Assembly: GCA_029255605.1 (NCBI GenBank)
Contig: JANLJF010000039.1
Coordinates: 6,399 to 70,398, forward strand
Direction: 5' to 3'
Source: Azovibrio restrictus
GTDB lineage: Bacteria > Bacteroidota > Bacteroidia > Chitinophagales > Chitinophagaceae
Length of the DNA: 64,000 nt
The translations under genes and the position numbers were made by a program. Below the pieces are notes generated by a model, which worked only from the letters and a program-made list of their open reading frames with translations, did no database searches and was not told the origin of the DNA. Positions 33,677-60,715 of this stretch are shown here, in pieces; position 1 is the first letter of the stretch; every line of letters starts with the position of its first letter.

Positions 33677-33750
33677 TCCTCCTTAGCTCAGTTGGTTAGA
33701 GCACCTGACTGTTAATCAGGGGGTCTCAGGTTCAAGTCCTGAAGGGGGAG
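33677..33750 (+). tRNA. tRNA-Asn (anticodon GTT), CCA not encoded
   Basis: Acceptor TCCTCCT/AGGGGGA, D arm GCTC/GAGC, anticodon arm CCTGA-CTGTTAA-TCAGG, T arm TCAGG-TTCAAGT-CCTGA. Confidence 0.97.
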
Positions 33751-33761
33751 CACTGATATAC

Positions 33762-42185: not shown

Positions 42186-42770
42186 ATGGATAAAACGATT
42201 CAAAAACTAACCAGCTTCCTTGAGAACAATCCTAACTCCAACAAAGAAGCCATTGCGCAAGCTACAGGCTTAAAGGGGTTAGTTCTCTTCAATAGTCTTA
42301 AGCGATTGGTGAAAGAGCGAGCAGTACAGGAAACTGAAGGCGACGAGAAGACCTATGCACTTGCGACCATTGATGCGAATGAAACAAGCAATGAGGAGTC
42401 GCAAGACCAGGATGAACCTGAGGTTATTTCTAAGGGAAGGGATAACTCCAAGTTCAAGTTCAATGGCGAATTGTACGGTAAAGGCCCGTTGGTTCATGCA
42501 GTGGTATCTCAATATGTGGCAGACAACAAAGGAACAACGTACAAGAAACTTAAGGAGGTCTTTCCTGACGATTTACTCAAACGCTTCGGTATATTTCAAC
42601 ACCAAGAAACAGCTCACCAAATCGCTCCTAAAGGAGGCAGGTACTTCTCAAAGCCTGAACAGGTCATCAAACTTAAAGACAGGTCTGTAATAGTATGCAA
42701 TCAGTTCACGCTTGCAAACATTCAACCGTTCCTAAAGATTGCTAAATCACTGGGTTATAAAATTAGGTAG
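42186..42770 (+). CDS. Hypothetical DNA-binding protein: N-terminal winged HTH + C-terminal domain ending KIAKSLGYKI
   Basis: N-terminal ...AIAQATGLKG..LFNSLKRLVKE (wHTH-like), acidic linker, C-terminal domain shared with 44281-44808. Confidence 0.7.
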   Translation: MDKTIQKLTSFLENNPNSNKEAIAQATGLKGLVLFNSLKRLVKERAVQETEGDEKTYALATIDANETSNEESQDQDEPEVISKGRDNSKFKFNGELYGKGPLVHAVVSQYVADNKGTTYKKLKEVFPDDLLKRFGIFQHQETAHQIAPKGGRYFSKPEQVIKLKDRSVIVCNQFTLANIQPFLKIAKSLGYKIR

Positions 42771-43573: not shown

Positions 43574-43912
43574 TCAATATTCAGAAGGTAGCAAAATGAT
43601 GCCATCTATACACCATATCGTCGCTTCTTTTGCTTTAAAATCTGTGTAAGGGATGGTTTGAGATTTCAGTACCTCATCATTTCCGTCAGTACATATCACT
43701 GTTGCAATCTCCTTTTCATCCACTGTGAGTTTCCACACCTGAAACGCTTCCTGGTTCAATGAAGGTTGATAAGAACAGATAACATCCAGGAACCACCAGC
43801 ATTCAAATGTTTCACACAGTGCCTTTACCCCATCTGTATGCAACATGCCGAACATGTATCTGTAATAGTTCTCTGTTACTGTATACTCCTTTAATTGGTC
43901 GTTCGCGTTCAT
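43574..43912 (-). CDS. DUF6876-like hypothetical protein
   Basis: TENYYR...L.TDGV..L.E...WFLD.I.SYQ, FQVWKL, Q.IPYTDF. Confidence 0.65.
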   Translation of the reverse strand: MNANDQLKEYTVTENYYRYMFGMLHTDGVKALCETFECWWFLDVICSYQPSLNQEAFQVWKLTVDEKEIATVICTDGNDEVLKSQTIPYTDFKAKEATIWCIDGIILLPSEY

Positions 43913-44027
43913 CTTATATCATTTTAAACGTGAGTTTAAAAGAGATTATAGATATACGGAATGGCAGGAACGCTAATGTTTCGCAAATGACATTGCAGGG
44001 GTCATTTGACCTCAATATTTTCAATCA

Positions 44028-44261
44028 ATGGCTGAACAAAACATGGAACTATCCGAGGAAACGCTTGACAGGATTACAAAATTCATTGAGGACTATGACC
44101 TTGACGGAAGGAAGCGAAATCTGCGTAAAGTATTTTTTGATTACTTACGACAGCAACAGGCCGGACTGGATGCTGAATTTAATAATGTGCTGAATGATGT
44201 TGAAAGCGTCATTGAATTACTTGAGGATATAGGTACAAAAGATAAAACCGTAGGTTTATAG
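44028..44261 (+). CDS. Small hypothetical protein
   Basis: 77-aa helical ORF (RNLRKVFFDYL), typical of Bacteroidetes island cargo. Confidence 0.6.
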   Translation: MAEQNMELSEETLDRITKFIEDYDLDGRKRNLRKVFFDYLRQQQAGLDAEFNNVLNDVESVIELLEDIGTKDKTVGL

Positions 44262-44808: not shown

Positions 44809-44888
44809 AGATTTATTAAGTTTAATTGCTAAATCTATGTTACACAGTAGTTTTAAACAAGGAAGCTTATAATATTAACCTATTATTT

Positions 44889-45323
44889 ATGAATCAAAAG
44901 CAATGGCTGAAGTTTTGGATGTACGCATATGACCCTATTTTCTACAACGACAGACGCTATGTTGATTTAAAAATGCTGTCAGCGGAGGAGTATCCTATAC
45001 TTGCTAAACTGGACGACTTTACAGAATTAGAAGTGTTGGTGATGGCTTATCTTATCAACAACATCAAGACATTCGAGCCAGGATTTAATGATATTTACAT
45101 TGATACCATCGTCGAAACATTCGAGAATTATGACTGTACGGTGCAGGACATAGATGCAGCTCTTACAAATTTACATAATAGAGGATGGGTTGAATTCTAC
45201 GTTGACGAAGTGAGGAATGAGTTCATCTATCAGGCAGACTTACTTGAATTGACGAAAGCAGGATTGTACATACCAGACAATGAAATTACACTTTCAATGG
45301 TAAACCAGTTAAGTGATAACTGA
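44889..45323 (+). CDS. Hypothetical protein (possible winged helix)
   Basis: 144 aa from MNQKQWL; DIDAALTNLHNRGWVEF...LTKAG is wHTH-like. Confidence 0.55.
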   Translation: MNQKQWLKFWMYAYDPIFYNDRRYVDLKMLSAEEYPILAKLDDFTELEVLVMAYLINNIKTFEPGFNDIYIDTIVETFENYDCTVQDIDAALTNLHNRGWVEFYVDEVRNEFIYQADLLELTKAGLYIPDNEITLSMVNQLSDN

Positions 45324-45360: not shown

Positions 45361-45425
45361 AAAAAAGGGACACTCAATGTATAAATAAAAGGATATACGT
45401 GTTATACGTTGAGTGTCTCTTTTTT
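45361..45425 (+). repeat. 23-bp inverted repeat with 19-nt loop between convergent genes
   Basis: aaaaaagggacactcaatgtata / tatacgttgagtgtctctttttt; both mismatches are G-U wobbles on the + strand. Confidence 0.75.
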
Positions 45426-45444
45426 AGCTTTTGTAATAGAGAAG

Positions 45445-46980
45445 TTAGTCATCCAGATTTTCTATGCCTTCCGTATTGAATGAGGGATTTAATCCAAGTT
45501 CATTAAAGGCTTGATTCATCAATTTCAGCGCTATAACATAGTCTTCCCGTGTCCTGACATATATCGAGTCGAAAATATTGAACGCCTTGATGCCTGTTCT
45601 TAACAGTTCCATATTCACATTGTCAAAGATGATGGTGGCTTCTACCTTTTGCAGTGTACTCGCAAACTCACCATAATTCCTGCTATATAAACCTCCTTTT
45701 TCATCGCATACCATTTCCCATACGCTCGGATAACGTTCTATAAACATTGACTTCAGGATGTTCTCCTTTTCTGTGACCATTGAAAAGAACACTTTAGCAA
45801 AGAAATCTGCCTTAAATTCACTTCTAAGTGTCGTAGGAAGGTTTAAGGCCTGCATGAAGTCATCATAAAAGCCTCCGCTTTCACATGCCGCTTGATACCT
45901 AAGCACATCGTCAGGCAGGTATCCTAATTTGTCTAACCAGTACCGTCTTATAACAATACAGGCAATCAGTGGCTGTGAGTTTCTGATGTCAATGCCCGCT
46001 ACTCTTTTACCTTTCAATCGCAAATGTTCTCGCAATTCACGATTAAGATGTGTTACCGCACAATAGACTCTTGAATGCTGAACAGGTCTCGTTACGACCA
46101 TATAGCCTTCATTGATTACAAATATTGCTTTATTACATCGTGCCATAGTCATACTATCAGGTTCAATATAACGACTCGTTTCATCTTCGCCATCTCTACA
46201 ATAGGTAACATTGAATGTACATGGCTCACATAGTACTGAATTTCCAGATTGCGTTTTTCTATCAAAATTGACAGTTTTCTTAGGTACGATTACGCCGCCA
46301 AATGGTACTGTTAGGCAATATGTAATATTGTTCTTTTTACTACACAGGTATTCAGACTTTCTTATGAACTTCCTATAATTTTCGAGCGATTTCGCATTTC
46401 GAACTTTGTTATCAAGAATTAACCTAAAGGTCTTTTCGATACCTTCTGTATCGATTGAAATCTCAGAAATTACTTCCTGGTATACTTTGAGGTCTTTTTG
46501 CGTTATAAGTTTCTCTTCGTGTCTCGCAATACTATTCCGGCACATGCAACGGTTATCAGTAACTTCTACATCAGTGAGGATGTCCATATCTACAAACTGG
46601 TAGCCATATGATTTACCTTTTTCGATAAACTTATCACCAAATGAAGATTTTGCTATGACGGCCTTTTTCATGATGCCGTCTTTCTTCAGAATGTTGACAC
46701 CGACTGCATCTTTCAGCATAGCCGACATCTGCCTGTTGTCAATAGATAGGTTTCGCGCCATTGTTGCCATGTGGATATTGACATAGCCAGTTTCAGAGCT
46801 TAGGTCTTTATTGCAGTTCTGAGTTGCGATGTAGTCAAAAAGATGGTAGAATTTCTGAATCCAGATTTCCTTTCGTCTGTAGCGCGTGGAATTGTGTACG
46901 AGTTTTTCAACCTTCTCAATGGCATTTTCTGGTACCAGGTATTTAATTGCCGTCGGTTGCTTTCTTTTTCGTGGCATCAA
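45445..46980 (-). CDS. Family-A DNA polymerase / T7 RNAP-like palm protein (putative replication protein of the element)
   Basis: SRVY..VT.L.RELR..L, motif A IDIRNSQP, motif B-like R.EFKADFFAKVFFS, LQKVEA, motif C NIFDSIYV; N-terminal HTH-like segment; no exonuclease domains. Confidence 0.6.
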   Translation of the reverse strand: MMPRKRKQPTAIKYLVPENAIEKVEKLVHNSTRYRRKEIWIQKFYHLFDYIATQNCNKDLSSETGYVNIHMATMARNLSIDNRQMSAMLKDAVGVNILKKDGIMKKAVIAKSSFGDKFIEKGKSYGYQFVDMDILTDVEVTDNRCMCRNSIARHEEKLITQKDLKVYQEVISEISIDTEGIEKTFRLILDNKVRNAKSLENYRKFIRKSEYLCSKKNNITYCLTVPFGGVIVPKKTVNFDRKTQSGNSVLCEPCTFNVTYCRDGEDETSRYIEPDSMTMARCNKAIFVINEGYMVVTRPVQHSRVYCAVTHLNRELREHLRLKGKRVAGIDIRNSQPLIACIVIRRYWLDKLGYLPDDVLRYQAACESGGFYDDFMQALNLPTTLRSEFKADFFAKVFFSMVTEKENILKSMFIERYPSVWEMVCDEKGGLYSRNYGEFASTLQKVEATIIFDNVNMELLRTGIKAFNIFDSIYVRTREDYVIALKLMNQAFNELGLNPSFNTEGIENLDD

Positions 46981-47211
46981 TCTTTTTGCGGCAGTATAAG
47001 CGTAAAGCCTTATTGAGGTCTTGATACCAGAAGCTTTTTTTTCATTCCAGAATTATTAGTCAAGCGCAGTAATTTACCGACTGAACATAAGGCGCCATAT
47101 TGTCTCATTACCTTAGCTTTTTACAACTATAAGCGTAACGCTTAAAAACGAAATTTAGGCGCGGTGTTGAGCTCCTGAGCAGGCTCTATGCTTGACAAGG
47201 GGAAAGTGATG

Positions 47212-47451
47212 CTAATGTAGAGAAGAAACTTTATGTACAATAGCCTCAATCAGTCCTGCGTCCATCGGTTTTGAAGTATCGCCTGATGCGTCTATGACCC
47301 TATAATCCCGTTCCTCGTCAAACTCAAATACAAGTGTCCTACCGTCTATATGTACATGGAATTGATGTATAAAACCTATCCTCACAAACTTTGTTTCAAG
47401 TTCGTAGGTCTTGCTTTTGTATTCAACCTTAAGTATAAAGCCGTCATCCAT
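47212..47451 (-). CDS. Small hypothetical protein
   Basis: 79 aa, beta-rich, GFIHQFHV.IDG..LVFE.DEER.YR. Confidence 0.65.
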   Translation of the reverse strand: MDDGFILKVEYKSKTYELETKFVRIGFIHQFHVHIDGRTLVFEFDEERDYRVIDASGDTSKPMDAGLIEAIVHKVSSLH

Positions 47452-47626
47452 TGCGGCTGCAATGATAATAATTTGTCAGCTTTTTCAGAAGACTGACTAT
47501 TGAAACCAGAATGTAAATGGTTACTAATGCGAACAACAGGAATAAAACTGCAATCGCTGACCTGTCAATAAAGTCAAGATTCTCCTTTCCACGTTTATCA
47601 AACGGGTTGATGATATTCATGTGTAA

Positions 47627-47839
47627 TTAGTTAAAACCTACGAAACGTCCTTCTTCATTCAAGCCTCTTGACCGTAATTCAAGCTTTACCAACTCAATAA
47701 TGTCAATGCCCCCACCCAATATCTCGACAAGAATATCCTTTGCCGCACCGTTCAATAAGAACAAAGGATTTTCATCGTCAGGTATGAAGCCAAGTGCAGC
47801 ACCTGCTTTCCATTCGTTCACTTGTTGCGCATGTGTCAT
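47627..47839 (-). CDS. Small hypothetical protein
   Basis: 70 aa, DDENPLFL...L...ELR.RGLN..G.FVGF. Confidence 0.65.
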   Translation of the reverse strand: MTHAQQVNEWKAGAALGFIPDDENPLFLLNGAAKDILVEILGGGIDIIELVKLELRSRGLNEEGRFVGFN

Positions 47840-49163: not shown

Positions 49164-52100
49164 CTATTTGAAACTTCTACCGGCAGGAAAGATTTCAGGT
49201 TGTATAATTCTTCGGGATTTGAAATTCTTGGATTGTGATGCTGGCAGTTCACCATCCTTTTCATCAGCTCTCGTTGATGCAGCGACTTGCGTGCTTGTTT
49301 CCTCAATCATGGTCAGGTTCCTTAATAGCCTTGAAAAGTCATAACATTTCTGCACCACCACATGTACAACCCGCCCTTCAATTTGCAACTTGCCTTCAAC
49401 CATCAGTAATCTTGACTGTAATATCTCTTTACGATACTGGTCAAAAAGGTTTTTGAAAACTACCAGATTCATAACCCCCGTTTCATCTTCCAGGGTAATA
49501 AAGCAAATACCGCTCGCGGTACCGGGACGCTGCTTATTTAGAACAAGCCCGGCGACCTTAATAATATCACCGTCCTTATAATTATTAATATCAACCGCGG
49601 AGGCAATCTGTAATGCAGATAGTTTACCCCTCACAAAACTTACCGGATGTGATTTAAGTGATAATCCCATGGTTGCGTAATCATGAGCTACATGTTCGGA
49701 AAGTTGCATTTGAGGGAGTTGCACGGTTGATTCTGTTTCAGAGGCTGAAGTCTGTCCTTTATACATTCCGTTAGGCGTATCATAAAGTGCAGACACCTGC
49801 CATAATGCTTGCCGTCTATCCATTCCCATAGAGTGGAACGCATCTGCATCAGCAAGTTTTTCTAATGCAGCTTGTGATACACCTGCATCTTTCAATGCTT
49901 CAATAGTGGTATAATGCTGCTTACGGCCTGCCATTAAGAATTGTATATCTTCTGATTTCAAACCTTTTACTTGTCTAAATCCTAACCTCATCGCACAATA
50001 TTTACCGGCTTTCTCTTCAAGCGTATTATCCCAATCAGAATAATTTATATCTACTTCGCGAACTTTTACATCATGGTTCCTGGCATCTATAATGATTTGC
50101 GCGGGGTGATAGAAGCCCATAGGCCAGCTATTCAATAACGCACATGCAAACACATCAGGGTAGTGATATTTCAACCAGGCAGAAACATAAGCGAGTAACG
50201 CAAAACTAACGGCATGGCTTTCAGGAAAGCCATAACTACCGAAACCCTCCAACTGTCTGAATACTCTTTTTGCAAAGTCCTCTTTGTAACCCTTCTTAAT
50301 CATGCCCTGTATCAACTTCTTCTCATAATCGCTTACCTGACCTTTAGCTTTGAATGTAGCCATACTACGACGTAACCCATCCGCTTCTGCAGGTGTAAAT
50401 CCTGCGGCCACTATCGCTATTTCCATTGCCTGTTCCTGAAATAGGGGCACCCCCATCGTCCTGCTCAATATCGCACGCAATTCTTCAGAAGGATATTCTT
50501 CTTTTTCCTTTCCTTCCCTCCGTCTTAAATATGGGTGAACCATATCGCCTTGTATGGGCCCTGGCCTTACAATAGCCACTTCTATAACTAAGTCATAAAA
50601 ACACTTCGGCTTCAGCCTTGGCAACATGGACATCTGTGCACGGCTCTCAATCTGGAATACACCTATGGTATCGGCACGGCTCGTCATCTCATAAACATCG
50701 GCATCATCTTGCGGTATGTTAGCGAGCGTAAGGTTTCGACCATAATGAAGTTTTACTAAATCAAACGCTTTACGGATACAAGTAAGCATGCCTAATGCCA
50801 ATACGTCTACTTTAAGAAAACCAAGCGCTTCAATGTCATCCTTGTTCCACTCTATACACGTTCTATCCTTCATCCTTGCATTCATTACAGGGCATAGGTT
50901 AGAAAGTTTGTCTTGTGTTATCACAAAACCACCTGTATGCTGGCCGAGTTGCCTTGGGAAACTGATGAATTGTTGTGTTAGTTGTAATACTTTCAAAAGG
51001 TGCGGGTCATTGGCATTAAATCCGTCAGTGGTTATTTTACCGCCTCTGAACCAGTCATCGGTGAACTCCCAGGACGCTTTTGCCAACCTGTCGGTCGTAT
51101 CAACAGACAGGCCCATCGCTTTCGCAATATCCCGAACGGCTCCACGATAATGGAGTTGCGTAACAGTGGCTACAATAGCCGCCCTGTCACGACCATATTT
51201 TTCATACACATACTGTATCACTTCTTCCCGTCTTTCATGCTCAAAGTCCACATCTATATCAGGTGGTTCGTCCCTCGCATCAGACATAAAACGGGCAAAT
51301 AGCAATTTAAATTTGGAAGGGTCAACTGAAGTAATACCAAGGCAATAACATACAGCGGAATTAGCGGCTGAACCTCTACCCTGGCACAGTATGTTCCTGC
51401 TTCTTGCAAAACGTACCAGGTCATGCACTGTCAGGAAATAAGCTGCGTAATTCTTCCGCTCTATGAAATCAAGCTCGTACTCTATGGATTTGACAATGTG
51501 TGCGGGTATATTATTCTTGAACTGCTCGTTGGCGCCTGACCAGGTCAAATGGACTAATTCTTCCTGTGGCGACCTTCCTTCAGTAGTTATCTCTTCGGGA
51601 TAAACGTATTCAAGGCTGTCCAGTGAAAATTGACAGGCACTTGCTATTTCCCGTGTTCTTGAGATAGCATCCGGGTATTGGGCAAAGAGGCGCTGCATCT
51701 CTTTTTCACCTTTGAGATACCTTTCTGCATTCTGGTAAAGTTTATAGCCGGCAGTATGGATGGTACACTTTTCACGTATACAAGTAACGACATCCTGCAA
51801 TTCCCTCCTTTCTGCCGTGTGGTAATGCACATCGTTCATAGCGACCAGTGGCACTTTCATTTGTTCCGCCAGTTTTGCAAGGCGATATAACTTCTTATTG
51901 TCATTGGCATGGTACGAACGTATCGCACCTAAATACAAGTTCCTGCCAAGGGCTATACGGTAATCGCTGAGCGCCTGTTTATAATGCGTTTCGATGTCGT
52001 ATTCCTTATTCAAAGAAGGTGGGGGCACCATGATGAATTTGATACCTTTTGAATACCTGAACACGTCGGCTTTGTATAAATGGCATTTTCCCTTTTCAGC

Positions 52101-52394
52101 ACGCATATTACCTTCGGACAATAAGGCACAGAGTCTTTCGTAGGCCGCTTTATCGGTAGGGTAAGCCAATAGTGGCGGACCATCCAATAGTTCAAGGCGG
52201 CAACCCGGAATGACCCTGATATTTTTACCACGTGCGGCCATATGTGCACGCACGATGCCCGCAAGGGTGTTATGGTCTGTTATGGCAATTTCGGTATAGC
52301 CTAACCGCGCGGCTTCTTCCACCAGCTCTTCGGGATGAGAACCGCCGCGTAAAAAGGAAAAGTTCGTCGTTACTTGTAATTCCGTGTAATTCAT
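49164..52394 (-). CDS. dnaE2: Error-prone DNA polymerase DnaE2 (ImuC)
   Basis: Y.EL.V.TNFSFLRGGSHPEELV, GRGSAANS.VCY.LGIT, PPDIDVDFEHERREEVIQY, QIESRAQMSMLPRL, YGFPESHA, OB fold QRPGTA.G..FITLEDETG. Confidence 0.95.
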   Translation of the reverse strand: MNYTELQVTTNFSFLRGGSHPEELVEEAARLGYTEIAITDHNTLAGIVRAHMAARGKNIRVIPGCRLELLDGPPLLAYPTDKAAYERLCALLSEGNMRAEKGKCHLYKADVFRYSKGIKFIMVPPPSLNKEYDIETHYKQALSDYRIALGRNLYLGAIRSYHANDNKKLYRLAKLAEQMKVPLVAMNDVHYHTAERRELQDVVTCIREKCTIHTAGYKLYQNAERYLKGEKEMQRLFAQYPDAISRTREIASACQFSLDSLEYVYPEEITTEGRSPQEELVHLTWSGANEQFKNNIPAHIVKSIEYELDFIERKNYAAYFLTVHDLVRFARSRNILCQGRGSAANSAVCYCLGITSVDPSKFKLLFARFMSDARDEPPDIDVDFEHERREEVIQYVYEKYGRDRAAIVATVTQLHYRGAVRDIAKAMGLSVDTTDRLAKASWEFTDDWFRGGKITTDGFNANDPHLLKVLQLTQQFISFPRQLGQHTGGFVITQDKLSNLCPVMNARMKDRTCIEWNKDDIEALGFLKVDVLALGMLTCIRKAFDLVKLHYGRNLTLANIPQDDADVYEMTSRADTIGVFQIESRAQMSMLPRLKPKCFYDLVIEVAIVRPGPIQGDMVHPYLRRREGKEKEEYPSEELRAILSRTMGVPLFQEQAMEIAIVAAGFTPAEADGLRRSMATFKAKGQVSDYEKKLIQGMIKKGYKEDFAKRVFRQLEGFGSYGFPESHAVSFALLAYVSAWLKYHYPDVFACALLNSWPMGFYHPAQIIIDARNHDVKVREVDINYSDWDNTLEEKAGKYCAMRLGFRQVKGLKSEDIQFLMAGRKQHYTTIEALKDAGVSQAALEKLADADAFHSMGMDRRQALWQVSALYDTPNGMYKGQTSASETESTVQLPQMQLSEHVAHDYATMGLSLKSHPVSFVRGKLSALQIASAVDINNYKDGDIIKVAGLVLNKQRPGTASGICFITLEDETGVMNLVVFKNLFDQYRKEILQSRLLMVEGKLQIEGRVVHVVVQKCYDFSRLLRNLTMIEETSTQVAASTRADEKDGELPASQSKNFKSRRIIQPEIFPAGRSFK

Positions 52395-52406
52395 GCTTCA
52401 CATGTT

Positions 52407-53909
52407 CTATCCAAAAAATCCGTGGACGTACCATTGCGGTTCACCGCTGTCATAATGGCCTAACCTGAATAACCAATAGCGCGCACCGTTTTCGTCTTCC
52501 ACGCAATAATAGTCCCTGTACATACCGCCTGTGAGCCACCATTCCTGTTCGATTCGTTCAGGGCCGTCCGCTTTAGTTACCTTATGCAACACGCCTTTGT
52601 AGTGGAAGAGCATTGGCGGATAATCCGGTATGGGTACTGTAACCTCGATACGCTCAGGATTATGCAGCAAATGCAGCGGACGCGGCGACTCGTCGCGCCA
52701 CTGTGTTGTAGGCATTTCTTGCACCGAACCCGCAAGTTTCATAGCCCTCTCGGGCCAGTAGTGCTCGGCAGGCAAATAACGGCATATCGCCTGCTTTCCG
52801 ACTTTACCGGCTATCCTGTCTAACAACTCTGCAATAGCGACATCATTTCCCTCCTCTTTCCTGTTCCATATTGCTTCCTGTTCAGGTGATATGCGTTCAG
52901 TCTCTCTGCCTTCTAACACGAACAGTTCAAATCCCAATGCCGGTTCTATAGCAGGTATCTTCAGTTCGAATAGTTTGAAAAGATGAGCCGCATTACGGGA
53001 CGGCCTGTTGGTACCTATCTCGATTTTCTGCACATTTCCGTCTATCCTGTAACAACAGAGCAAACAACTGCGTAAACCAATCTCGTCTTTAGCCATTCTT
53101 GCACACAATCCTTCGAGTAGCTGTTTTAATGCTATCTCAATACCTGTCGCCGTACGGATAGGCTCTAAGGATGGCAATCGTTCCTGATATGGGACAACCG
53201 GATTTACCGGTTCAATTGTTTCTATCTCTTGCCCAAGTGCCTGGTCTATACGTTGTAATAAAGACTGCCCAAATCGTCTGCGTAGTGCACCGCGAGGCAT
53301 CCGAATGAAATCTTTTACCTGGTACAATCCCAGTTTTTCCAATCGCTGCGCAATGGATGTTTCAATGCGCAATGCTGAAGGTGGTAAGTGCAATAGTGCA
53401 CTCAACTGCTCACCAGCCTTTATTATTGAATATGCAGGGCGGCCATAACGTGCAACTGCCCATGCGGTACCTATAGTATCAGCCATACAAATACGCACAT
53501 CGTACCCTAACTTTCTGAATTTCTCAAGTATATCCGCAACGTATCGTTCTTCTCCGCCCCACAGATGTGCACAACCGCTTGCGTTCAGTATGATTCCATC
53601 CGGCAGGTCTATAGCTACGACGGGAGTATACCTGATGCACCATTCGCCAATGGCCGTCAATAGCTTTTCATTTAACCCCGGTGTGTCGTCAATGACCTGC
53701 AGTGAAGGAAGGATGGCCCTGCTGTCTGCTACCGCCATTCCAATGTTGACACCTTTCCCTCGGGCCACGTCGTTTGCCCCTTTTACTATGGCCCTGCCTC
53801 TTTCTGTTGAAGATAATACGAACGGCACATTGCGCAGATACGGTTGTCTTCTCATTAACCAATCCGTGCAAAGACTGCTGAACCATATGGATACATATCG
53901 CCTTTCCAT
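52407..53909 (-). CDS. imuB: Y-family polymerase-like protein ImuB
   Basis: G...GM.VAD.RA..P.L, RYTP.VA.D.PDG..L..SGCAHLWGGE, C-terminal GPERIE.EWW....RDYY..ED..G.RYWLFR. Confidence 0.92.
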   Translation of the reverse strand: MERRYVSIWFSSLCTDWLMRRQPYLRNVPFVLSSTERGRAIVKGANDVARGKGVNIGMAVADSRAILPSLQVIDDTPGLNEKLLTAIGEWCIRYTPVVAIDLPDGIILNASGCAHLWGGEERYVADILEKFRKLGYDVRICMADTIGTAWAVARYGRPAYSIIKAGEQLSALLHLPPSALRIETSIAQRLEKLGLYQVKDFIRMPRGALRRRFGQSLLQRIDQALGQEIETIEPVNPVVPYQERLPSLEPIRTATGIEIALKQLLEGLCARMAKDEIGLRSCLLCCYRIDGNVQKIEIGTNRPSRNAAHLFKLFELKIPAIEPALGFELFVLEGRETERISPEQEAIWNRKEEGNDVAIAELLDRIAGKVGKQAICRYLPAEHYWPERAMKLAGSVQEMPTTQWRDESPRPLHLLHNPERIEVTVPIPDYPPMLFHYKGVLHKVTKADGPERIEQEWWLTGGMYRDYYCVEDENGARYWLFRLGHYDSGEPQWYVHGFFG

Positions 53910-54643
53910 TACGCTGTCCTGCTTTTGTGTATCGCAGGTATAGAAACTGCCTTATCTGCTGTTACACTGAATGTATTTGTGTTCCACTCCACCTGCCAGG
54001 CACCGGGTATGCCATTGCGCACCTTAAGTAGTTGCACATGCCATTTAGGGAAACCGACACCCGGCAGGTCATCTATTGGTGTGCTCGGTAAAATCTTTAT
54101 ACTCCAGCGAGCGACGCTTGCGACCGCATTTTTATTCTTCGGTTTGAAACGGTGTATAAATCCGGTTACGTTACTATGCTCAACGGCTAACTGCAACCTG
54201 CGTGATTCTGTGAAACCCAGTTCCTGTATCTCACCCACTACGGCAACCAATGCTTCGCATTTCAATGCCTCTTCAATTACCCACAGTGCGTCTTTAGGTT
54301 TAATGAGGTCTATAAAGACCAGGTTCGCAGGGTCTATACCATATGATTTCAATGCCGGCGGGTAAATAGTGCGATTGGTACTTACCCATAGGCAAATGCC
54401 TTTTCTTCTTGTCAGTTTACTGAGCAGGCTTGCTATAAAGCAATTGGTAGCAACTGCATGTTCGGAGCTATCGCTTACAAACTCATGGATGGTGCCTGTT
54501 GGAAATTTTCTATTTGGAAAATTGTTTTCAATGCTGCTTAAATCGGTCTGCTGCTGCCTTTGCTCAACTATGCCCTTAAAACCCTGCAGGGTTAAAACTT
54601 CTTTTCGAAGCCTTGCTACAATATCTGATTTCTGTGCCTGCAC
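53909..54643 (-). CDS. imuA: RecA-like protein ImuA
   Basis: FP.G.IHEF, YPPAL..YGI.P....F, WVIEEALKC, SRRLQLAVE, W...L.KVRNG.PG.W. Confidence 0.9.
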   Translation of the reverse strand: MQAQKSDIVARLRKEVLTLQGFKGIVEQRQQQTDLSSIENNFPNRKFPTGTIHEFVSDSSEHAVATNCFIASLLSKLTRRKGICLWVSTNRTIYPPALKSYGIDPANLVFIDLIKPKDALWVIEEALKCEALVAVVGEIQELGFTESRRLQLAVEHSNVTGFIHRFKPKNKNAVASVARWSIKILPSTPIDDLPGVGFPKWHVQLLKVRNGIPGAWQVEWNTNTFSVTADKAVSIPAIHKSRTA

Positions 54644-54656
54644 AAAATGGGCTTAT

Positions 54657-54670
54657 TGTACAATTGTACA
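54657..54670. promoter_or_regulatory. Perfect 14-bp palindrome just upstream of imuA
   Basis: TGTACAATTGTACA, adjacent to a minus-strand TAAATTTG -7 element (54671-54678). Confidence 0.45.
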
Positions 54671-54696
54671 CAAATTTATGCCAAATACGGCTTAAA

Positions 54697-54716
54697 TATT
54701 GAACATATGTTTAATA
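54697..54716. promoter_or_regulatory. Near-perfect 20-bp palindrome with GAAC-N4-GTTY core (SOS-box-like) upstream of imuA
   Basis: TATTGAACATATGTTTAATA, in the expected -33 region of the imuA promoter. Confidence 0.5.
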
Positions 54717-54780
54717 AATGTGATAAAATTCGCTACTGGCAACATGTATATTAATTTAATTAATTGAAATATCTTCTATG

Positions 54781-55347
54781 CTACCGCAATGTTCGTAGCG
54801 TAACAGAAATACGAATTTCCTTTACCGGGGATATGCTATGTTCCCAGTCTGTTCGTGCTTCATCTTTTATGACATAAACAGACCGGCGCTTTACAGTAAA
54901 GGAGATGATGGATTTTCTGTTCTGCTTCGCTTTATCATATGGGCGAAACCTGAAAGTACAGTCGGACAATAATGAAACACCGATTATCATATCAAAAGGT
55001 GGTGCGTCACGGTGCCAATTGATAACTGAACCAACGGGATACTCGGTCACAAGCACCTCTGCGAGGCTTTCTGCCGGAATTGTCAAGAATGCAGCCACTT
55101 TTTCAATAAGCGGTATTAAACCTTTAGGTATTGCTTTCCCCTTCGTTACAGTTCTCTTATCAAAGTTGTAATCATATCCATAGCTCTCCACCTTACGCTT
55201 GGCCTCGAATCCCTGGAATATGAGCGGATGCAGGTCTAACTTACCAATTACAGCTAACAATCCAGTTTCCTCCTGTTCGGTAATGAAATCAGGGAAGTAA
55301 CCGAAACCATATGGCAGAACAGGTATAGAATCAAAAAGTGTCTGCAT
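54781..55347 (-). CDS. alkB: AlkB-like 2OG-Fe(II) dioxygenase
   Basis: R.V..YG.DY.F, LVTEY..G..I.WH.D, R..WEHSI, RIS.TLR (HxD...H...R); start at MQTLFD. Confidence 0.85.
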   Translation of the reverse strand: MQTLFDSIPVLPYGFGYFPDFITEQEETGLLAVIGKLDLHPLIFQGFEAKRKVESYGYDYNFDKRTVTKGKAIPKGLIPLIEKVAAFLTIPAESLAEVLVTEYPVGSVINWHRDAPPFDMIIGVSLLSDCTFRFRPYDKAKQNRKSIISFTVKRRSVYVIKDEARTDWEHSISPVKEIRISVTLRTLR

Positions 55348-55421
55348 AACACGATACCTGGTAAAATTTAATGCCAAACCTATTATATGTTGGGCATGTA
55401 ATTACCGAGGATATAGTTTGC

Positions 55422-55874
55422 TCATGGTTTGTAATTTAAAACCTCGGCAATAGGAATAAAAATGACCAACACGTGGCCTGTTTTTGTTTCAGCCAAACGG
55501 CTCCTGTAAGCATAGTATTCTAAAAGACTGTGCATTTTGCGAGCCGGTATAGATGCGCTTATCATACTTTTTAACTTTCGCGAGGCTCTGAATGGGCTTT
55601 TTAGTTTATGCTCAAACAAAAAGGAGTTATCTGCGTCGATATCCACTATTACCTCACCATTCCTCGTTGCCAATACAGGAACCGCCAGGGAGATATTTTC
55701 AAGAGCGGCTTTAAGGCGACTGATAAATTCAGGGTCTGTTTTGGGCTTATTAACATCGAGACAATCGGCAGGATAACCATTCAGTTTATAAAATTCTTCC
55801 TGTTTCTCAGCCTTTGGTTTATCTATCAGGTAATACAAAAGGTTTTCGATGTCTTCGGTTTCGTAATCATACAT
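55422..55874 (-). CDS. Hypothetical protein
   Basis: 150-aa ORF co-oriented with neighbours. Confidence 0.6.
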   Translation of the reverse strand: MYDYETEDIENLLYYLIDKPKAEKQEEFYKLNGYPADCLDVNKPKTDPEFISRLKAALENISLAVPVLATRNGEVIVDIDADNSFLFEHKLKSPFRASRKLKSMISASIPARKMHSLLEYYAYRSRLAETKTGHVLVIFIPIAEVLNYKP

Positions 55875-55949: not shown

Positions 55950-56894
55950 TTAAGCTGCTGCTTTCTCGAGTATTTCGGAATAAATATGCCTGCATATGGC
56001 TTCAGCAAAAGGTGGCAATACCATCATACCTAATTTCTTTGTAAGCTCTGCATCGGAAATAAGTCCATTAAAATCATATTCATCCATATGAGCCAATACT
56101 TTCCTGTCTTGAATCGTCAACTTTTGCCAAAGACCGTTCCTGAATATCTCAACGTCGCTGCTTGTCATGGTAGGAAATAACTTAGTCCTGCCATCGATGA
56201 TTCTTACTCTATCTCCCGATTGCTTTCTAAAGCCTTTATGCCTTATCAGTTCGGCACCAATTGTAGCGAAAGCAGATTGTTTGTTCATATCAACAGGATT
56301 TGGCACTGGATAAGATGGCTTTACAACTAAGTCTTTTCTGACAAGCATTATCATCGCGCGATTGCGCGACTGAAAACATCCGAAGTTCTCAGCGTTTAAA
56401 ACCTTTACGTCCCAATGATAATTGCCTAAAAGTTCAATCTCATTGACGAAGTAATTAAAGAACGGGCGCATGGGTTTGGATAGCAAAGTCGGTACCTGCT
56501 CAATAAGTACAACTTTAGGCTGTATCTCTTTGACCAACCTTAGCATCTCTATCATCAGGAAGTTCAAGGCATGGAACACACTTCTGAAATTCGCATTCAG
56601 CAAAGTGATACCAAAACAGGGAGGCCCTCCCACTAACAGGTCAAGCTCACCTTTTGCGATGTCTATACCGATTGCATTCAAAGCGTTTCTGATGTCTTTA
56701 TCGAATATAAGGTCCCTGACATCTTTGACGAGGAATATATCTTTACCCTTGTGTTCCCATATAACAGGGGCTACAGTGCTTGCCAGTTCTTCAATATCAG
56801 AAGAGAACGGTGCATTGAAACCGGCACGCCTCGCGCCGGTTTCAAGACCTTGTAAATTGGAGAATAATCCGAATGCTATTTTTTTACGTGACAT
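55950..56894 (-). CDS. Divergent DNA (cytosine-5)-methyltransferase-like protein
   Basis: GGPPC, LIEQVP.L, LNAENFG..Q.RNR, LT..DR..L, LGMMVLPP; motif I is FSNLQG instead of FxGxGG; start at MSRKKIAF. Confidence 0.8.
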   Translation of the reverse strand: MSRKKIAFGLFSNLQGLETGARRAGFNAPFSSDIEELASTVAPVIWEHKGKDIFLVKDVRDLIFDKDIRNALNAIGIDIAKGELDLLVGGPPCFGITLLNANFRSVFHALNFLMIEMLRLVKEIQPKVVLIEQVPTLLSKPMRPFFNYFVNEIELLGNYHWDVKVLNAENFGCFQSRNRAMIMLVRKDLVVKPSYPVPNPVDMNKQSAFATIGAELIRHKGFRKQSGDRVRIIDGRTKLFPTMTSSDVEIFRNGLWQKLTIQDRKVLAHMDEYDFNGLISDAELTKKLGMMVLPPFAEAICRHIYSEILEKAAA

Positions 56895-56919
56895 ACTTTT
56901 GTTTTTAAGGATTAAGAGA

Positions 56920-57948
56920 TTAGGCCGCCAGATTATCTGAATTATAAATGATGACCTGTATCTGGCTGTTATCAGGACCTTTGAATACGTGGAACTGGCT
57001 TCCATCAACATTGTGTTGTATGCCACCACCATATTTAATGTTACCCGTTCCTTTACCGAATATCTCAGCGCTGATGCTGCCGTTGTCTGCCTGTAACTTC
57101 ATCTCTTTGCCTGATGCGAACCTGATGACCAATTCCTGAATACTTTCACAAGGCACTGTTTGTTTCTGGCCGGCAAAATCCCAGTCATCTGTTTCGACCT
57201 TCGCCGGTTTTATTCCATCGGCTGCAATGACATCTGTTTGACAACTCTCACATTCAATGCCTGCCGTGTCCGTACTGATGGCTATTTCCTCCGTTGTATC
57301 ACTGCCATCGACTTCAGATTCAACATGTGAAGGTGCTGGCGTAGTATCAGCCTTAGACTCGGTTGTCAACTCCGATGTATTCACTTGTATATCCGGCTTA
57401 CGAACCTTAGGCAGTGATTCCAATGCTTCTGTAAAGGTCATGTCGCCGTCATCAATCTTACTTAACAGGTCAGGGTTGTACTTGTATATTCTTTCCAACT
57501 GGTTTATCATGCCATAACTGTATCCCACCAGGAAACCTATTTTTCTATTTATCTCTTCGCCAGGCACTTCCTCTTTCCAAATTTTGCCGGCCTCTGTTTC
57601 ATTCATATACTTTCTGAGTGATGCAATAAGTTCTGCCTGTTGCAAGCGTGAAAGCCTGCGCCGCATGTTTTTAAAACTTATCACCTGTATTGCCGCATCG
57701 CTATCAATGTCAAGCATTGTCACTTCCATTTCTTTCAATCCCATCCTCATTGCTGTTTCAACGGCTTCGAAATTGTGAAGCACGTCTTTGTTTGTAGTGC
57801 ATATAACGTCTCCTGGCGGCAGGCTGAATTTTATATATTGGCCTACCTCAAAGTCAGTTATTTTTGTCTTCCCATATTTTGCCAGAAATGGGTTCATCGT
57901 CAAATCTGTAGTCTTTACTGTAGTCTTATTTGCTGTTATTTTCTTCAT
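56920..57948 (-). CDS. ParB-like protein with degenerate CTPase motif, HTH and acidic linker
   Basis: ETAMRMGLKEMEV..LD...A..I....N.RR.LS..QQA.LI, HTH RKIGFLVGYSYGMINQL, LL.KID.G.MT.TEA; GxxRxxA box replaced by HNFEAVETA. Confidence 0.65.
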   Translation of the reverse strand: MKKITANKTTVKTTDLTMNPFLAKYGKTKITDFEVGQYIKFSLPPGDVICTTNKDVLHNFEAVETAMRMGLKEMEVTMLDIDSDAAIQVISFKNMRRRLSRLQQAELIASLRKYMNETEAGKIWKEEVPGEEINRKIGFLVGYSYGMINQLERIYKYNPDLLSKIDDGDMTFTEALESLPKVRKPDIQVNTSELTTESKADTTPAPSHVESEVDGSDTTEEIAISTDTAGIECESCQTDVIAADGIKPAKVETDDWDFAGQKQTVPCESIQELVIRFASGKEMKLQADNGSISAEIFGKGTGNIKYGGGIQHNVDGSQFHVFKGPDNSQIQVIIYNSDNLAA

Positions 57949-59389: not shown

Positions 59390-60619
59390 TTACTTTAAAA
59401 GTGTTTCTGAAAGTTGTTTGATATGATTGTCTGGAATGCTCTTTAAGTAGTGCATAGTAGTCTTACCGTCGGCATGCCCTAAAGCATCTGTTATAAAGGA
59501 GGTAGGTGTACCGTTCAATTTGAGATTCGTTCCAAATGAATGCCTTGCCAGGTTTAAAACCAATGGAACTGTAAAACCGAGATGTTCTCCGATTCCTCTC
59601 AATTTCTCATTGACAATTTTTTGTATCATTTTCCTCCGCTTCTCTCTTTCAATAGCTGTAGGATAGTTGTTCAAAATAGGAAAGATGTAGTTATCAGCTG
59701 ACATATCTGTATTACCCCAAACTTTTATGATGCGCTTCATCTCAGGATGCAGGAAGGCTTTAATTTCTTTGTTGGCTACTGAGTTTGTCCGTTTTGTTTT
59801 TTCGCGAACAAACATAATCGTATCGCCTTTAATGTTGCCGTACTTCATATAGACCATATCCTTAAAATTGATACCGTTGCACAGATAACAGAACAACCAA
59901 TAGTCCTTTGCCCTTCGTGCTCTTAATGTTGCAGGTTGATAGTGAAACAACTCTTGAACCTGTTCGGGATATAATACGTTTTTTGATTTTGCCGATGTAC
60001 CGATTGTATAGTCATCGAAAGGATAGAAACGTTTGGCTAAGTACCCATCCTTAATTGCCTTATTGAATATGATGCGCAGGTTACGCAAATATATCTGCGC
60101 TGTGGTTGCAGAATTACCTTCTTTCTCCATCCAGGAGCGATACCCTTTTAAGAAAGCTACATTGATGTCTTCAAAGTACAGAGGTGTTCTGTATTTCTTT
60201 AATGAACGCAAAGCATGGTTCATATTTTGTGCAGACTTAAACCGCTCCTCTTTTTTAAGGTTAAGCATGTACTCTTCAAATAGAAAGGTTACGTCTGTTT
60301 TGTCCGAACGATGTAAATCAGTTTCTGACTTGAACAACCTTTGAAAACCTTCACGGGTTGGATTAGGTAGTACTTCTAAAATACCTTCGGCCTTCGCTAT
60401 ATATTTACCGATTTCTGAGCGCAGTTCCTTGACATCTTTACTACCGCTTTTGCCGCTCATGGCTTTACCAAAATCTTCCTTGTTTGCGTATAGTTTCAAT
60501 CCGATTTTGAACTGTAAACCTGCTATAGATACACTGAGCTGAATCGGACAGAGGTCAGTCCCTTTCTTCGGATAGCGTTTGTCCCAGTGTACGTGGACAG
60601 AATAGTTTCTTTGCTTCAT
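59390..60619 (-). CDS. Tyrosine recombinase / integrase (Bacteroidetes Arm-DNA-binding + SAM-like + catalytic domains)
   Basis: N-terminal arm-binding domain (D.R..KK...PI.L.V), YLRNLR..FN.AIK, CNGINF.D, R.KT, ARHSFGT, LGH.D..TT..Y. Confidence 0.93.
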   Translation of the reverse strand: MKQRNYSVHVHWDKRYPKKGTDLCPIQLSVSIAGLQFKIGLKLYANKEDFGKAMSGKSGSKDVKELRSEIGKYIAKAEGILEVLPNPTREGFQRLFKSETDLHRSDKTDVTFLFEEYMLNLKKEERFKSAQNMNHALRSLKKYRTPLYFEDINVAFLKGYRSWMEKEGNSATTAQIYLRNLRIIFNKAIKDGYLAKRFYPFDDYTIGTSAKSKNVLYPEQVQELFHYQPATLRARRAKDYWLFCYLCNGINFKDMVYMKYGNIKGDTIMFVREKTKRTNSVANKEIKAFLHPEMKRIIKVWGNTDMSADNYIFPILNNYPTAIEREKRRKMIQKIVNEKLRGIGEHLGFTVPLVLNLARHSFGTNLKLNGTPTSFITDALGHADGKTTMHYLKSIPDNHIKQLSETLLK

Positions 60620-60715
60620 GTAACCGAAGATGCAAGAAACCGGCATCCATAGGTCAGCCTACCTCGCTAAATTTTCGCAAATCCAAGAATTGTAATCTTA
60701 TAATGTGGAAGTATT

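What the first reader, a model, noticed from the sequence alone, without database searches (positions are those of the whole stretch)
45361..47144. PolA-like palm protein as a possible replicase of a pipolin-like integrative element
Seen: a 511-aa ORF with motif A (IDIRNSQP), a motif-B-like helix (R.EFK.DF..K.FFS) and motif C (NIFDSIY, with Phe in place of the usual His), an N-terminal HTH-like segment and no exonuclease. The island has a tyrosine integrase and a ParB-like gene, but I see no relaxase, T4SS, capsid, terminase or helicase. Established: family-A-related 'TV-Pol' proteins of mobile elements were proposed to act as primase/polymerases, usually with a D5 helicase; pipolins are integrative elements built on a primer-independent PolB. 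Inference: this may be an analogous self-replicating island driven by a PolA-like enzyme.
Basis: partly seen in the sequence, partly recalled or inferred. Interest (0 to 1): 0.65.

Follow-up and report, generated by a model that had tools for sequence, protein, structure and literature searches.

The report
Minimal PolA-like polymerase of integrative island
A 510-residue unannotated gene on a 33-kb mobile island inserted in a tRNA-Asn gene encodes a DNA-binding winged helix joined to a stripped-down DNA-polymerase-I-type catalytic core; it probably starts copying of the island's own DNA, a kind of enzyme predicted in 2008 ("TV-Pol") and still almost untested.

Summary
The ORF (window 45445-46977, minus strand) carries the three motifs described. 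Its AlphaFold model (pLDDT 87.5) matches only family-A DNA polymerases among the top 50 solved structures. The catalytic Asp residues, the O-helix R-x3-K-x3-F-x3-F and the minor-groove Arg and Gln are invariant or nearly so in 187 relatives. The gene is under purifying selection (dN/dS 0.22).

It is a core gene of a 33.2-kb island in tRNA-Asn, flanked by a 45-bp direct repeat; a congener has the empty site. Relatives lie beside tyrosine integrases, serine resolvases and DNA methylases, often at tRNAs. None of 28 loci has a helicase, primase, SSB, relaxase or capsid gene nearby.

A PolA-type replicase or primase of an integrative element is plausible, but replication was not shown and the idea is not new. 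It matches the integrase/resolvase-linked TV-Pol subset of Iyer et al. 2008, and SCCmec CcPol-MP is a proven PolA-type primase. The pipolin analogy is only functional.

The family has at least 7,160 clusters at 50% identity and is absent from Pfam, NCBIfam, PHROGs and PADLOC. This scan has already reported the same kind on other DNA at least eight times. Verdict: a new member of a known, biochemically untested kind.

The parts
45445..46977 (-). Gene for the wHTH + minimal family-A polymerase (510 aa from ATG; an in-frame TTG at 46980 gives 511). Residue numbers in this report follow the 511-residue reading.
   Evidence: (P0002 100% identical, 510 aa); dN/dS 0.22 against an 89%-identical copy
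46441..46980 (-). N-terminal domain, residues 1-180: winged helix-turn-helix plus a small beta sheet. It is the likely DNA-binding (origin- or site-recognition) module.
   Evidence: AF2 secondary structure; lower-ranked BFVD hits to winged-helix, FtsK-gamma and DnaD-like proteins; one homologue is named a MarR-family regulator by JGI
46111..46440 (-). Residues 181-290: long helix 181-216, disordered loop 217-274, helix 275-290. This is a possible two-helix thumb.
   Evidence: pLDDT below 50 at 220-269; thumb assignment is inferred, geometry not inspected
45448..46110 (-). Catalytic core, residues 291-511: beta-hairpin Arg (R304), palm and fingers.
   Evidence: (conserved core = profile positions 260-490)
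45970..45993 (-). Motif A, IDIRNSQP: metal-binding D331, and invariant Q336 at the steric-gate position of Pol I (E710).
   Evidence: D 185/185, Q 185/185
45787..45825 (-). Motif B / O-helix: R386-x3-K390-x3-F394-x3-F398.
   Evidence: R 172/187, K 187/187, F394 174/187, F398 164/187
45559..45579 (-). Motif C, NIFDSIY: metal-binding D471. F470 replaces the His of most family members.
   Evidence: D 187/187; position 470 H 96, F 77, Y 14
45361..45425 (.). 24-nt-arm inverted repeat flanked by A and T runs, between the converging polymerase gene and ORF 44826-45323. It looks like a bidirectional terminator.
   Evidence: I1, 92% complementary
47212..47839 (-). Three small co-oriented ORFs upstream of the polymerase gene (70, 58 and 79 aa). 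The 70-aa one is conserved in five related loci, and the 70- and 79-aa genes are also called just upstream of the polymerase in L088 (L003 has the 70-aa one).
43574..43912 (-). DUF6876 gene, the most constant companion of the close subfamily (10 loci). Helical N-terminus plus antiparallel sheet, not an OB fold.
   Evidence: best match 2r41, unknown function
42186..42770 (+). 194-aa gene conserved in 10 related loci, with a weak MarR-like N-terminal match. Its C-terminal half matches PADLOC candidate PDC-S57.
55950..57948 (-). Backbone pair: 342-aa protein of unknown fold (the 'ParB-like' label is unconfirmed) and a C5-methyltransferase-like protein. The pair recurs in related elements.
59390..60646 (-). 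Tyrosine integrase of the island.
   Evidence: Phage_int_SAM_5 + Phage_integrase; 73% identical integrase in the related element L003
33677..33752 (+). tRNA-Asn and attL. The 45-bp repeat 33708-33752 recurs at window-equivalent 66955-66999 (attR, beyond the window end), bounding a 33.2-kb island.
   Evidence: empty site in congener G217
49164..55377 (-). Cargo cassette directly upstream: AlkB-like oxygenase, ImuA, ImuB-like and error-prone DnaE2.
   Evidence: same cassette in L088, and DnaE2 also upstream of the polymerase in L012

Best explanation
The gene encodes an active, exonuclease-less family-A (Pol I-type) nucleotide polymerase reduced to hairpin, palm and fingers, with a possible two-helix thumb, fused to an N-terminal winged-helix DNA-binding domain. 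It is a core (backbone) gene of tRNA-integrating elements, not cargo. Most likely mechanism (inferred, not shown): after the integrase excises the island, the winged helix places the enzyme on a site in the element. The polymerase core then makes or extends the first DNA strand with dNTPs, and host replication proteins take over. This lets the circular form persist or multiply before loss, transfer or reintegration. Shown here: the fold, the conserved active site, purifying selection, island boundaries with an empty site, and linkage to recombinases. Inferred: DNA rather than RNA synthesis (from Q336, F394 and F398 at the Pol I E710, F762 and Y766 positions), origin binding, priming, and any replication of the island.
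For: Fold: AF2 pLDDT 87.5, pTM 0.83. All top 50 PDB Foldseek hits are family-A polymerases: T7 DNAP E 3e-5, Bst, Taq, Pol theta; local rmsd 4.7 A over 238 columns with 6n9u_H. Best viral hits are about 400-aa phage 'putative DNA polymerase I' proteins, E 3e-18, TMt 0.75. Active site: R304, D331, Q336, K390, Q444, E447 and D471 are invariant or over 95% conserved in 187 representatives, with spacing as in Pol I motifs 2, A, B, 6 and C (alignment; established Pol I residue roles). Selection: dN/dS 0.22, and 0.19 in the core. Backbone gene: the order integrase ... MTase-like ... 70-aa ... polymerase ... DUF6876 ... 194-aa gene is kept in elements with different cargo. In distant relatives the gene sits right after Int or the HTH_17 (AlpA/Xis-like) gene, the slot held by primase/Rep in other integrative elements. 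Census of 129 neighbours in 28 loci: integrase 7, resolvase 4, methylases 12. tRNA genes lie within the fetched flanks in 7 of the 20 loci scanned. Occurrence is patchy: 21 of 201 genomes of the same family, sometimes several copies. Island mobility: 45-bp repeat and empty site. Precedent: CcPol-MP of SCCmec is a PolA-type dNTP primase (PMC7581432, PMC10061031), and the TV-Pol prediction is in PMC2579912.
Against: No helicase, SSB or OB-fold partner was found near the gene in 28 loci. The constant companion DUF6876 is not an OB fold. In the only characterised case, CcPol alone cannot prime without its SSB partner (PMC7581432). No iterons or clear origin-like repeats lie next to the gene. Sequence profiles do not reach Pol I significantly (hhalign E 0.04-0.2; PF00476 does not hit). 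They also do not reach the named TV-Pol host record Ma-LMM01.
Confidence: 0.5

Rival explanations
1. Primer-extending polymerase only, acting as a Pol I surrogate. It cannot start chains. It extends a transcript or R-loop at an element site (ColE1-like initiation) or fills gaps left by recombination, with all priming done by host enzymes.
For: CcPol without its SSB partner only extends DNA or RNA primers (PMC7581432, read). No SSB or OB partner and no helicase was found here. The conserved R304 and Q444 correspond to Pol I residues that read a primer-template duplex (established Pol I knowledge).
Against: The host has its own Pol I, so a plain surrogate gives the element little. The gene occupies the genomic slot usual for primase/Rep genes.
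Confidence: 0.25
2. Single-subunit RNA polymerase (T7-like) that transcribes element genes or makes an RNA primer.
For: Motif C reads H/F-D-S as in T7 RNA polymerase (HDS) rather than Pol I's HDE. The divPolA2 phage relatives also gave RNA polymerase structural hits according to PMC11348598.
Against: All top 50 PDB hits are DNA polymerases and none is an RNA polymerase. Q336 fills the steric-gate position where T7 RNAP has Gly. The Tyr that reads the 2'-OH in T7 RNAP (Y639) is Phe in 164/187 members (inference from published T7 and Klenow mutants). There is no promoter-recognition or N-terminal RNAP domain.
Confidence: 0.07
3. Defence or counter-defence effector, for example a polymerase that makes a signalling or decoy nucleic acid, carried like the island's other immunity genes.
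For: The island is packed with defence genes: OLD-like ATPase, GHKL nuclease, HNH, Dcm/Vsr and a Mokosh-like helicase. The conserved 194-aa neighbour matches PADLOC candidate PDC-S57.
Against: The polymerase has no PADLOC match. It stays with the recombinase backbone while the defence cargo changes from element to element.
Confidence: 0.08
4. Repair or translesion polymerase that works with the adjacent ImuA-ImuB-DnaE2 mutasome.
For: The imu cassette lies directly upstream, co-oriented, in the window and in L088, and DnaE2 does so in L012.
Against: Most related loci, such as L003 and L008-L015, lack the cassette, so it is cargo of one lineage. The cassette is complete without a fourth polymerase.
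Confidence: 0.05

Closest known systems
TV-Pol family (Iyer, Abhiman and Aravind 2008, PMC2579912), the subset with an N-terminal extra domain linked to integrases or resolvases
   Same: Minimal family-A core with no nuclease. Hairpin Arg, two catalytic Asp, fingers Asp and R-x3-K. Found in Bacteroidota and Planctomycetes and in viruses. Sits beside lambda-type integrases or gamma-delta resolvases in restriction-modification-rich regions. Predicted primase-polymerase of the element.
   Different: The N-terminal domain here is a winged helix plus beta sheet, not the all-helical TV-PolN described. HMMER profiles of this family did not hit the Ma-LMM01 phage record named as a TV-Pol host, so a direct sequence link to a named member was not obtained. 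There is no D5 helicase.
CcPol-MP-Cch2 replication module of SCCmec and the PolA-SSB primases of Bacillota (PMC7581432, PMC10061031)
   Same: An exonuclease-poor family-A polymerase encoded by an integrative element with defence cargo. It is the only case where primase activity of such an enzyme was shown.
   Different: Those enzymes need an adjacent OB-fold SSB and sit in an operon with a helicase and serine recombinases. Here no SSB, OB-fold or helicase partner was found. The enzyme carries its own winged helix, and the recombinase is a tyrosine integrase. Steric gate is Gln here and Glu in CcPol.
divPolA2 of barbaviruses and other Caudoviricetes (PMC11348598)
   Same: About 400-450-aa PolA core with no exonuclease and an unrelated N-terminal globular domain instead of a canonical thumb. 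Structural hits at E 5e-8 to 1e-5.
   Different: Phage-borne, in variable neighbourhoods beside a regular PolB. TM-scores to this model are low (0.24-0.31), and tblastn against 50,697 phage records gave only one weak hit.
Pipolins (piPolB elements)
   Same: Integrative elements whose hallmark gene is a polymerase proposed to self-prime; often tRNA-inserted with variable defence cargo.
   Different: piPolB is a family-B polymerase, so there is no homology with this enzyme. The likeness is functional analogy only.

Membership tests
Family-A polymerase superfamily (Pol I / T7) | Palm and fingers fold | tested here: met
   All top 50 PDB Foldseek hits are family-A polymerases at probability 0.89-1.00, from a model with pLDDT 87.5.
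Family-A polymerase superfamily (Pol I / T7) | Motif A and motif C aspartates; O-helix R-x3-K-x3-F-x3-Y | tested here: met
   D331 185/185, D471 187/187, R386 172/187, K390 187/187, F394 174/187. The last position is F398 (164/187) instead of Tyr.
Family-A polymerase superfamily (Pol I / T7) | Significant sequence-profile match to DNA_pol_A | tested here: not met
   No PF00476 hit. hhalign against a low-diversity Pol I alignment gave E 0.04-0.2, although motifs 2, A, 6 and C line up.
TV-Pol (PMC2579912) | Minimal core without any nuclease domain | tested here: met
   No exonuclease by Pfam, NCBIfam or PDB sequence search. The N-terminal 180 residues model as a winged helix plus sheet.
TV-Pol (PMC2579912) | Beta-hairpin with an absolutely conserved Arg; fingers Asp and R-x3-K | tested here: met
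   R304 184/184 within S-R-V-Y...T-N-L, which resembles Pol I G-R-L-S-S..P-N-L. D358 173/187. R386-x3-K390.
TV-Pol (PMC2579912) | Thumb of two antiparallel helices | tested here: inconclusive
   Helices 181-216 and 275-290 flank a disordered loop. The 3D arrangement could not be inspected.
TV-Pol (PMC2579912) | Neighbourhood with integrase, resolvase or transposase in restriction-modification hot spots | tested here: met
   Integrase 7, resolvase 4 and methylases 12 among 129 neighbours of 28 loci.
TV-Pol (PMC2579912) | Sequence link to a named TV-Pol member | tested here: inconclusive
   Profiles A1 and A3 found nothing in Microcystis phage Ma-LMM01. No other named member was reachable: the paper's alignment file is not held and Sputnik is not in the collections.
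TV-Pol (PMC2579912) | All-helical TV-PolN N-terminal domain (in the integrase-linked subset) | tested here: not met
   The N-terminal domain has five beta strands and a winged helix.
PolA-SSB primases (CcPol-MP type) | Adjacent OB-fold SSB partner | tested here: not met
   DUF6876 models as helices plus an antiparallel sheet, with best match 2r41 and no SSB match. No SSB family appears in the neighbour census. The small upstream ORFs were not modelled.
PolA-SSB primases (CcPol-MP type) | Helicase in the same operon | tested here: not met
   No helicase family among 129 neighbours. The island's only helicase is 20 kb away and Mokosh-like.
PolA-SSB primases (CcPol-MP type) | Primer-independent DNA synthesis | not testable with these tools
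   Needs biochemistry.
Pipolin | Primer-independent family-B polymerase (piPolB) | tested here: not met
   The fold is family A. No PolB gene was found among the island ORFs scanned.

The most novel reading that the evidence does not exclude
The winged-helix-fused enzyme is a self-sufficient, site-specific DNA primase-polymerase. It would need neither an SSB partner nor a dedicated helicase, and so would be a third, independent way (after piPolB and CcPol-MP) in which a 'primer-dependent' polymerase fold starts DNA chains. It would serve one of the largest uncharacterised replicase families of integrative elements and phages (at least 7,160 clusters at 50% identity).
Probability: 0.25. Interest if true: 0.6.

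Novelty: new member of a known kind. Interest (0 to 1): 0.37.

Why it matters
If these enzymes prime and copy their own elements, many tRNA-inserted 'defence islands' of Bacteroidota and other phyla are small autonomous replicons rather than passive cargo. That would change how their spread and stability are modelled. The family is very large, absent from Pfam, NCBIfam, PHROGs and PADLOC, and has no tested member outside Staphylococcus. A compact 230-residue family-A core with a built-in DNA-binding domain is also a tractable object for asking what stops ordinary polymerases from starting chains. For this window alone the result is ordinary: one more member of a kind this scan has met repeatedly.

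Tried and rejected
- Pfam, NCBIfam, PHROGs and PADLOC scans of the protein, and Pfam on 10 distant relatives: no family.
- PDB sequence search with the single sequence and with a profile: nothing relevant.
- hhalign of the family profiles against a Pol I alignment built from the host and its relatives: not significant, probably because that Pol I alignment has Neff 2.
- Link to a named TV-Pol: the Ma-LMM01 record gave no hit with two profiles, the Sputnik record is not held, and the paper's alignment supplement is not held.
- tblastn against 72,556 plasmids: no hit, so this is not a plasmid Rep family there. Against phages: one weak hit.
- Second word-indexed protein search with a broader alignment: no new members.
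- SSB-partner idea: DUF6876 was modelled and is not an OB fold.
- Origin search: no iterons or tandem repeats near the gene, only a terminator-like hairpin and a weak 14-nt two-copy repeat at 46995 and 47128.
- Broad alignment A3 could not seed a viral-contig scan; A1 could.
- The 'ParB-like' neighbour could not be confirmed by sequence methods.
Full report
**1. The observation**

The window has a 511-codon ORF at 45445-46980 on the minus strand. Its first codon is TTG and its second is ATG. The identical database protein has 510 residues (P0002), so the gene most likely runs 45445-46977.
- The finding's left edge (45361-45425) is a 24-nt-arm inverted repeat with flanking A and T runs. It lies between this gene and the converging ORF 44826-45323 and looks like a shared terminator.

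**2. What the protein is**

No Pfam, NCBIfam, PHROG or PADLOC model matches it. No solved structure matches by sequence.

An AlphaFold2 model built on 53 homologues is confident: pLDDT 87.5, pTM 0.83, with only residues 217-274 disordered.
- Against the PDB, all top 50 Foldseek hits are family-A DNA polymerases (T7 DNA polymerase, Bst, Taq and Klenow fragments, Pol theta) at probability 0.89-1.00. Local superpositions reach rmsd 4.7 A over 238 columns.
- Against predicted viral structures, the best hits are about 400-aa phage proteins, one named 'putative DNA polymerase I' (E 3e-18 and 5e-14, TM to target 0.75). The barbavirus and Aeromonas-phage proteins follow; these are the proteins that PMC11348598 calls divPolA2.
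- Lower-ranked viral hits to the N-terminus are winged-helix proteins. This fits the helix-helix-hairpin modelled at residues 71-120.

In an HMM alignment of 187 family representatives, the following are invariant or nearly so:

| Residue | Conservation |
|---|---|
| R304 | 184/184 |
| D331 | 185/185 |
| N334 | 181/187 |
| Q336 | 185/185 |
| D358 | 173/187 |
| R386 | 172/187 |
| K390 | 187/187 |
| F394 | 174/187 |
| F398 | 164/187 |
| Q444 | 179/187 |
| E447 | 187/187 |
| D471 | 187/187 |

From established knowledge of Klenow fragment, these fall in the order and spacing of R668 (motif 2, G-R-L-S-S..P-N-L versus S-R-V-Y...T-N-L here), D705, E710, R754, K758, F762, Y766, Q849 and D882. A permissive hhalign alignment to the host's own Pol I pairs motifs 2, A, 6 and C (R304, D331, Q444, D471) with those Pol I motifs; the O-helix does not pair in it. 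Its score is not significant (E 0.04).

The Phe before the motif C Asp is a subfamily trait: H 96, F 77, Y 14 of 187.
- Gln at the steric-gate position and Phe at the position of T7 RNA polymerase Y639 argue for dNTP use. This is inference.
- Against an 89%-identical copy, dN/dS is 0.22 overall and 0.19 in the core.

So the protein is a real, selected and very probably active polymerase. It has no exonuclease. It has an N-terminal winged-helix domain (1-180), a possible two-helix thumb (181-290) and a roughly 220-residue catalytic core.

**3. The family**

- A word-indexed search found 64 clusters, all unnamed, from Pedobacter, Taibaiella, Mucilaginibacter and metagenomes.
- An exhaustive profile search found 7,160 clusters at 50% identity with E <= 1e-3, and 5,095 with E <= 1e-10. 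The conserved part is the C-terminal core. Ten distant members have no Pfam domain.
- Genome loci come mostly from Bacteroidota, but also from Planctomycetota, Ignavibacteria and two archaeal assemblies.
- Ten IMG/VR viral contigs carry relatives.
- In the host's taxonomic family, 21 of 201 sampled genomes have it, some with several copies. That places the host in the same GTDB family as Taibaiella (by my own knowledge Chitinophagaceae).
- No plasmid in PLSDB carries it.

**4. The island**

- tRNA-Asn lies at 33677-33751. Its last 45 bp (33708-33752) recur 33.2 kb downstream on the same contig, beyond the window end at window-equivalent 66955-66999.
- In a congener, the tRNA-Asn is followed directly by the sequence that here follows the second repeat. 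That is an empty site. G+C drops from about 0.44 to about 0.37 at the tRNA.
- The backbone is defined by comparison with related elements:

| Backbone part | Window coordinates |
|---|---|
| Tyrosine integrase | 59390-60646 |
| 342-aa protein plus C5-methyltransferase-like protein | 55950-57948 |
| 150-aa ORF | 55422-55874 |
| Small ORFs | 47212-47839 |
| Polymerase | 45445-46977 |
| DUF6876 | 43574-43912 |
| 194-aa gene | 42186-42770 |

- The rest is cargo. It includes an OLD-like ATPase, a GHKL protein, an HNH nuclease, Dcm and Vsr. It also includes an AlkB-like / ImuA / ImuB / DnaE2 cassette at 49164-55377. Beyond the window there is a DUF559-like protein with an SF1 helicase that matches Mokosh helicases.
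- No relaxase, T4SS, capsid or terminase family was found in any ORF scanned.

**5. Context across the family**

I scanned 129 ORFs of 170-620 aa lying within 4.5 kb of the polymerase gene in 28 loci against Pfam in one call.
- The recurrent families were C5 and N6/N4 DNA methylases (12), Phage_integrase (7) and Resolvase (4).
- None of the 25 most frequent families listed was a helicase, primase, SSB, relaxase or virion family.
- In distant relatives the gene follows Int directly or an HTH_17 (AlpA/Xis-type) gene.
- tRNA genes lie within the fetched flanks in 7 of the 20 loci scanned.

This is the slot and company of primase/Rep genes in other integrative elements (my own knowledge of P4-like and PICI/SaPI layouts). 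It is also the neighbourhood that Iyer et al. described for the integrase- and resolvase-linked TV-Pol subset.

**6. Partner test**

The only characterised enzyme of this kind, CcPol of SCCmec, primes only with an adjacent OB-fold SSB and works with a helicase.
- I therefore modelled the most constant small neighbour, DUF6876 (pLDDT 83.5). It is helices plus an antiparallel sheet. Its only significant match is an Enterococcus protein of unknown function (2r41). It is not an OB fold.

**7. Mechanism and rivals**

- Best reading (confidence about 0.5): an element-encoded, site-directed polymerase that starts DNA synthesis on the excised island.
- Rival, about 0.25: it only extends host-made primers or transcripts.
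- Rival, about 0.07: it is an RNA polymerase.
- Rival, about 0.08: it is a defence effector.
- Rival, about 0.05: it helps the imu cassette.

The fold and active site are shown. Everything about replication is inferred. No iterons were seen near the gene.

**8. Comparison with the known, and novelty**

- The closest described class is TV-Pol (PMC2579912). The core features and the neighbourhood are met. The all-helical TV-PolN domain is not met. A sequence link to a named member could not be obtained.
- It works like the CcPol-MP primases, but it fails their two defining context features: the SSB partner and the helicase.
- It is only analogous to pipolins.
- This scan has already reported the same kind at least eight times on other genomes. 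Those notes were leads; the tests above were done here.
- I file it as a new member of a known, computationally predicted and biochemically almost untested kind. Interest is moderate.

Noticed in passing
window 49164-55377 (minus): A complete AlkB-like / ImuA / ImuB-like / DnaE2 (error-prone Pol III alpha, 1392 bits) cassette rides on the island directly upstream of the polymerase gene. The same cassette is in the 89%-identical element L088, and a 72%-identical DnaE2 also sits upstream of the polymerase in L012. It is 94.6% identical to L088, against about 90% for the polymerase region.
   Followed up: partly
window 42186-42770 (+): A 194-aa backbone gene conserved in 10 related elements. Its C-terminal half matches PADLOC candidate defence family PDC-S57 (E 6e-10). 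That candidate may have been picked up simply because it is a backbone gene of defence-carrying islands.
   Followed up: no
L002 1460-5157 (window-equivalent about 63061-66758, beyond the window end): At the right end of the island, a 619-aa protein with a weak DUF559-like nuclease match is followed by a 612-aa SF1 helicase matching Mokosh MkoA/MkoC helicase domains. This is probably another defence pair.
   Followed up: partly
window 43574-43912 (minus): DUF6876 models confidently (pLDDT 83.5) and resembles only PDB 2r41, an Enterococcus faecalis protein of unknown function. A small conserved ORF lies divergent from it in eight related loci; the window counterpart is about 43807-44193 (+).
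   Followed up: partly
window 56920-57948 (minus): The protein that first readers called ParB-like has no Pfam, NCBIfam, PADLOC or PDB sequence match. It is nevertheless conserved next to the C5-methyltransferase-like gene in seven loci.
   Followed up: partly
L010 / L064-L066 (Taibaiella soli contig, 359,748 bases): Three matches to the polymerase family lie within 25 kb of one contig, and another genome of the window's genus has four matches. These are possibly tandem or compound islands.
   Followed up: no
L031 and L034: Relatives of the polymerase core occur on contigs assigned to archaea (a Nitrosotalea MAG and an uncultured archaeon), next to what looks like a repetitive surface or tail-fibre-like protein in L031.
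   Followed up: no
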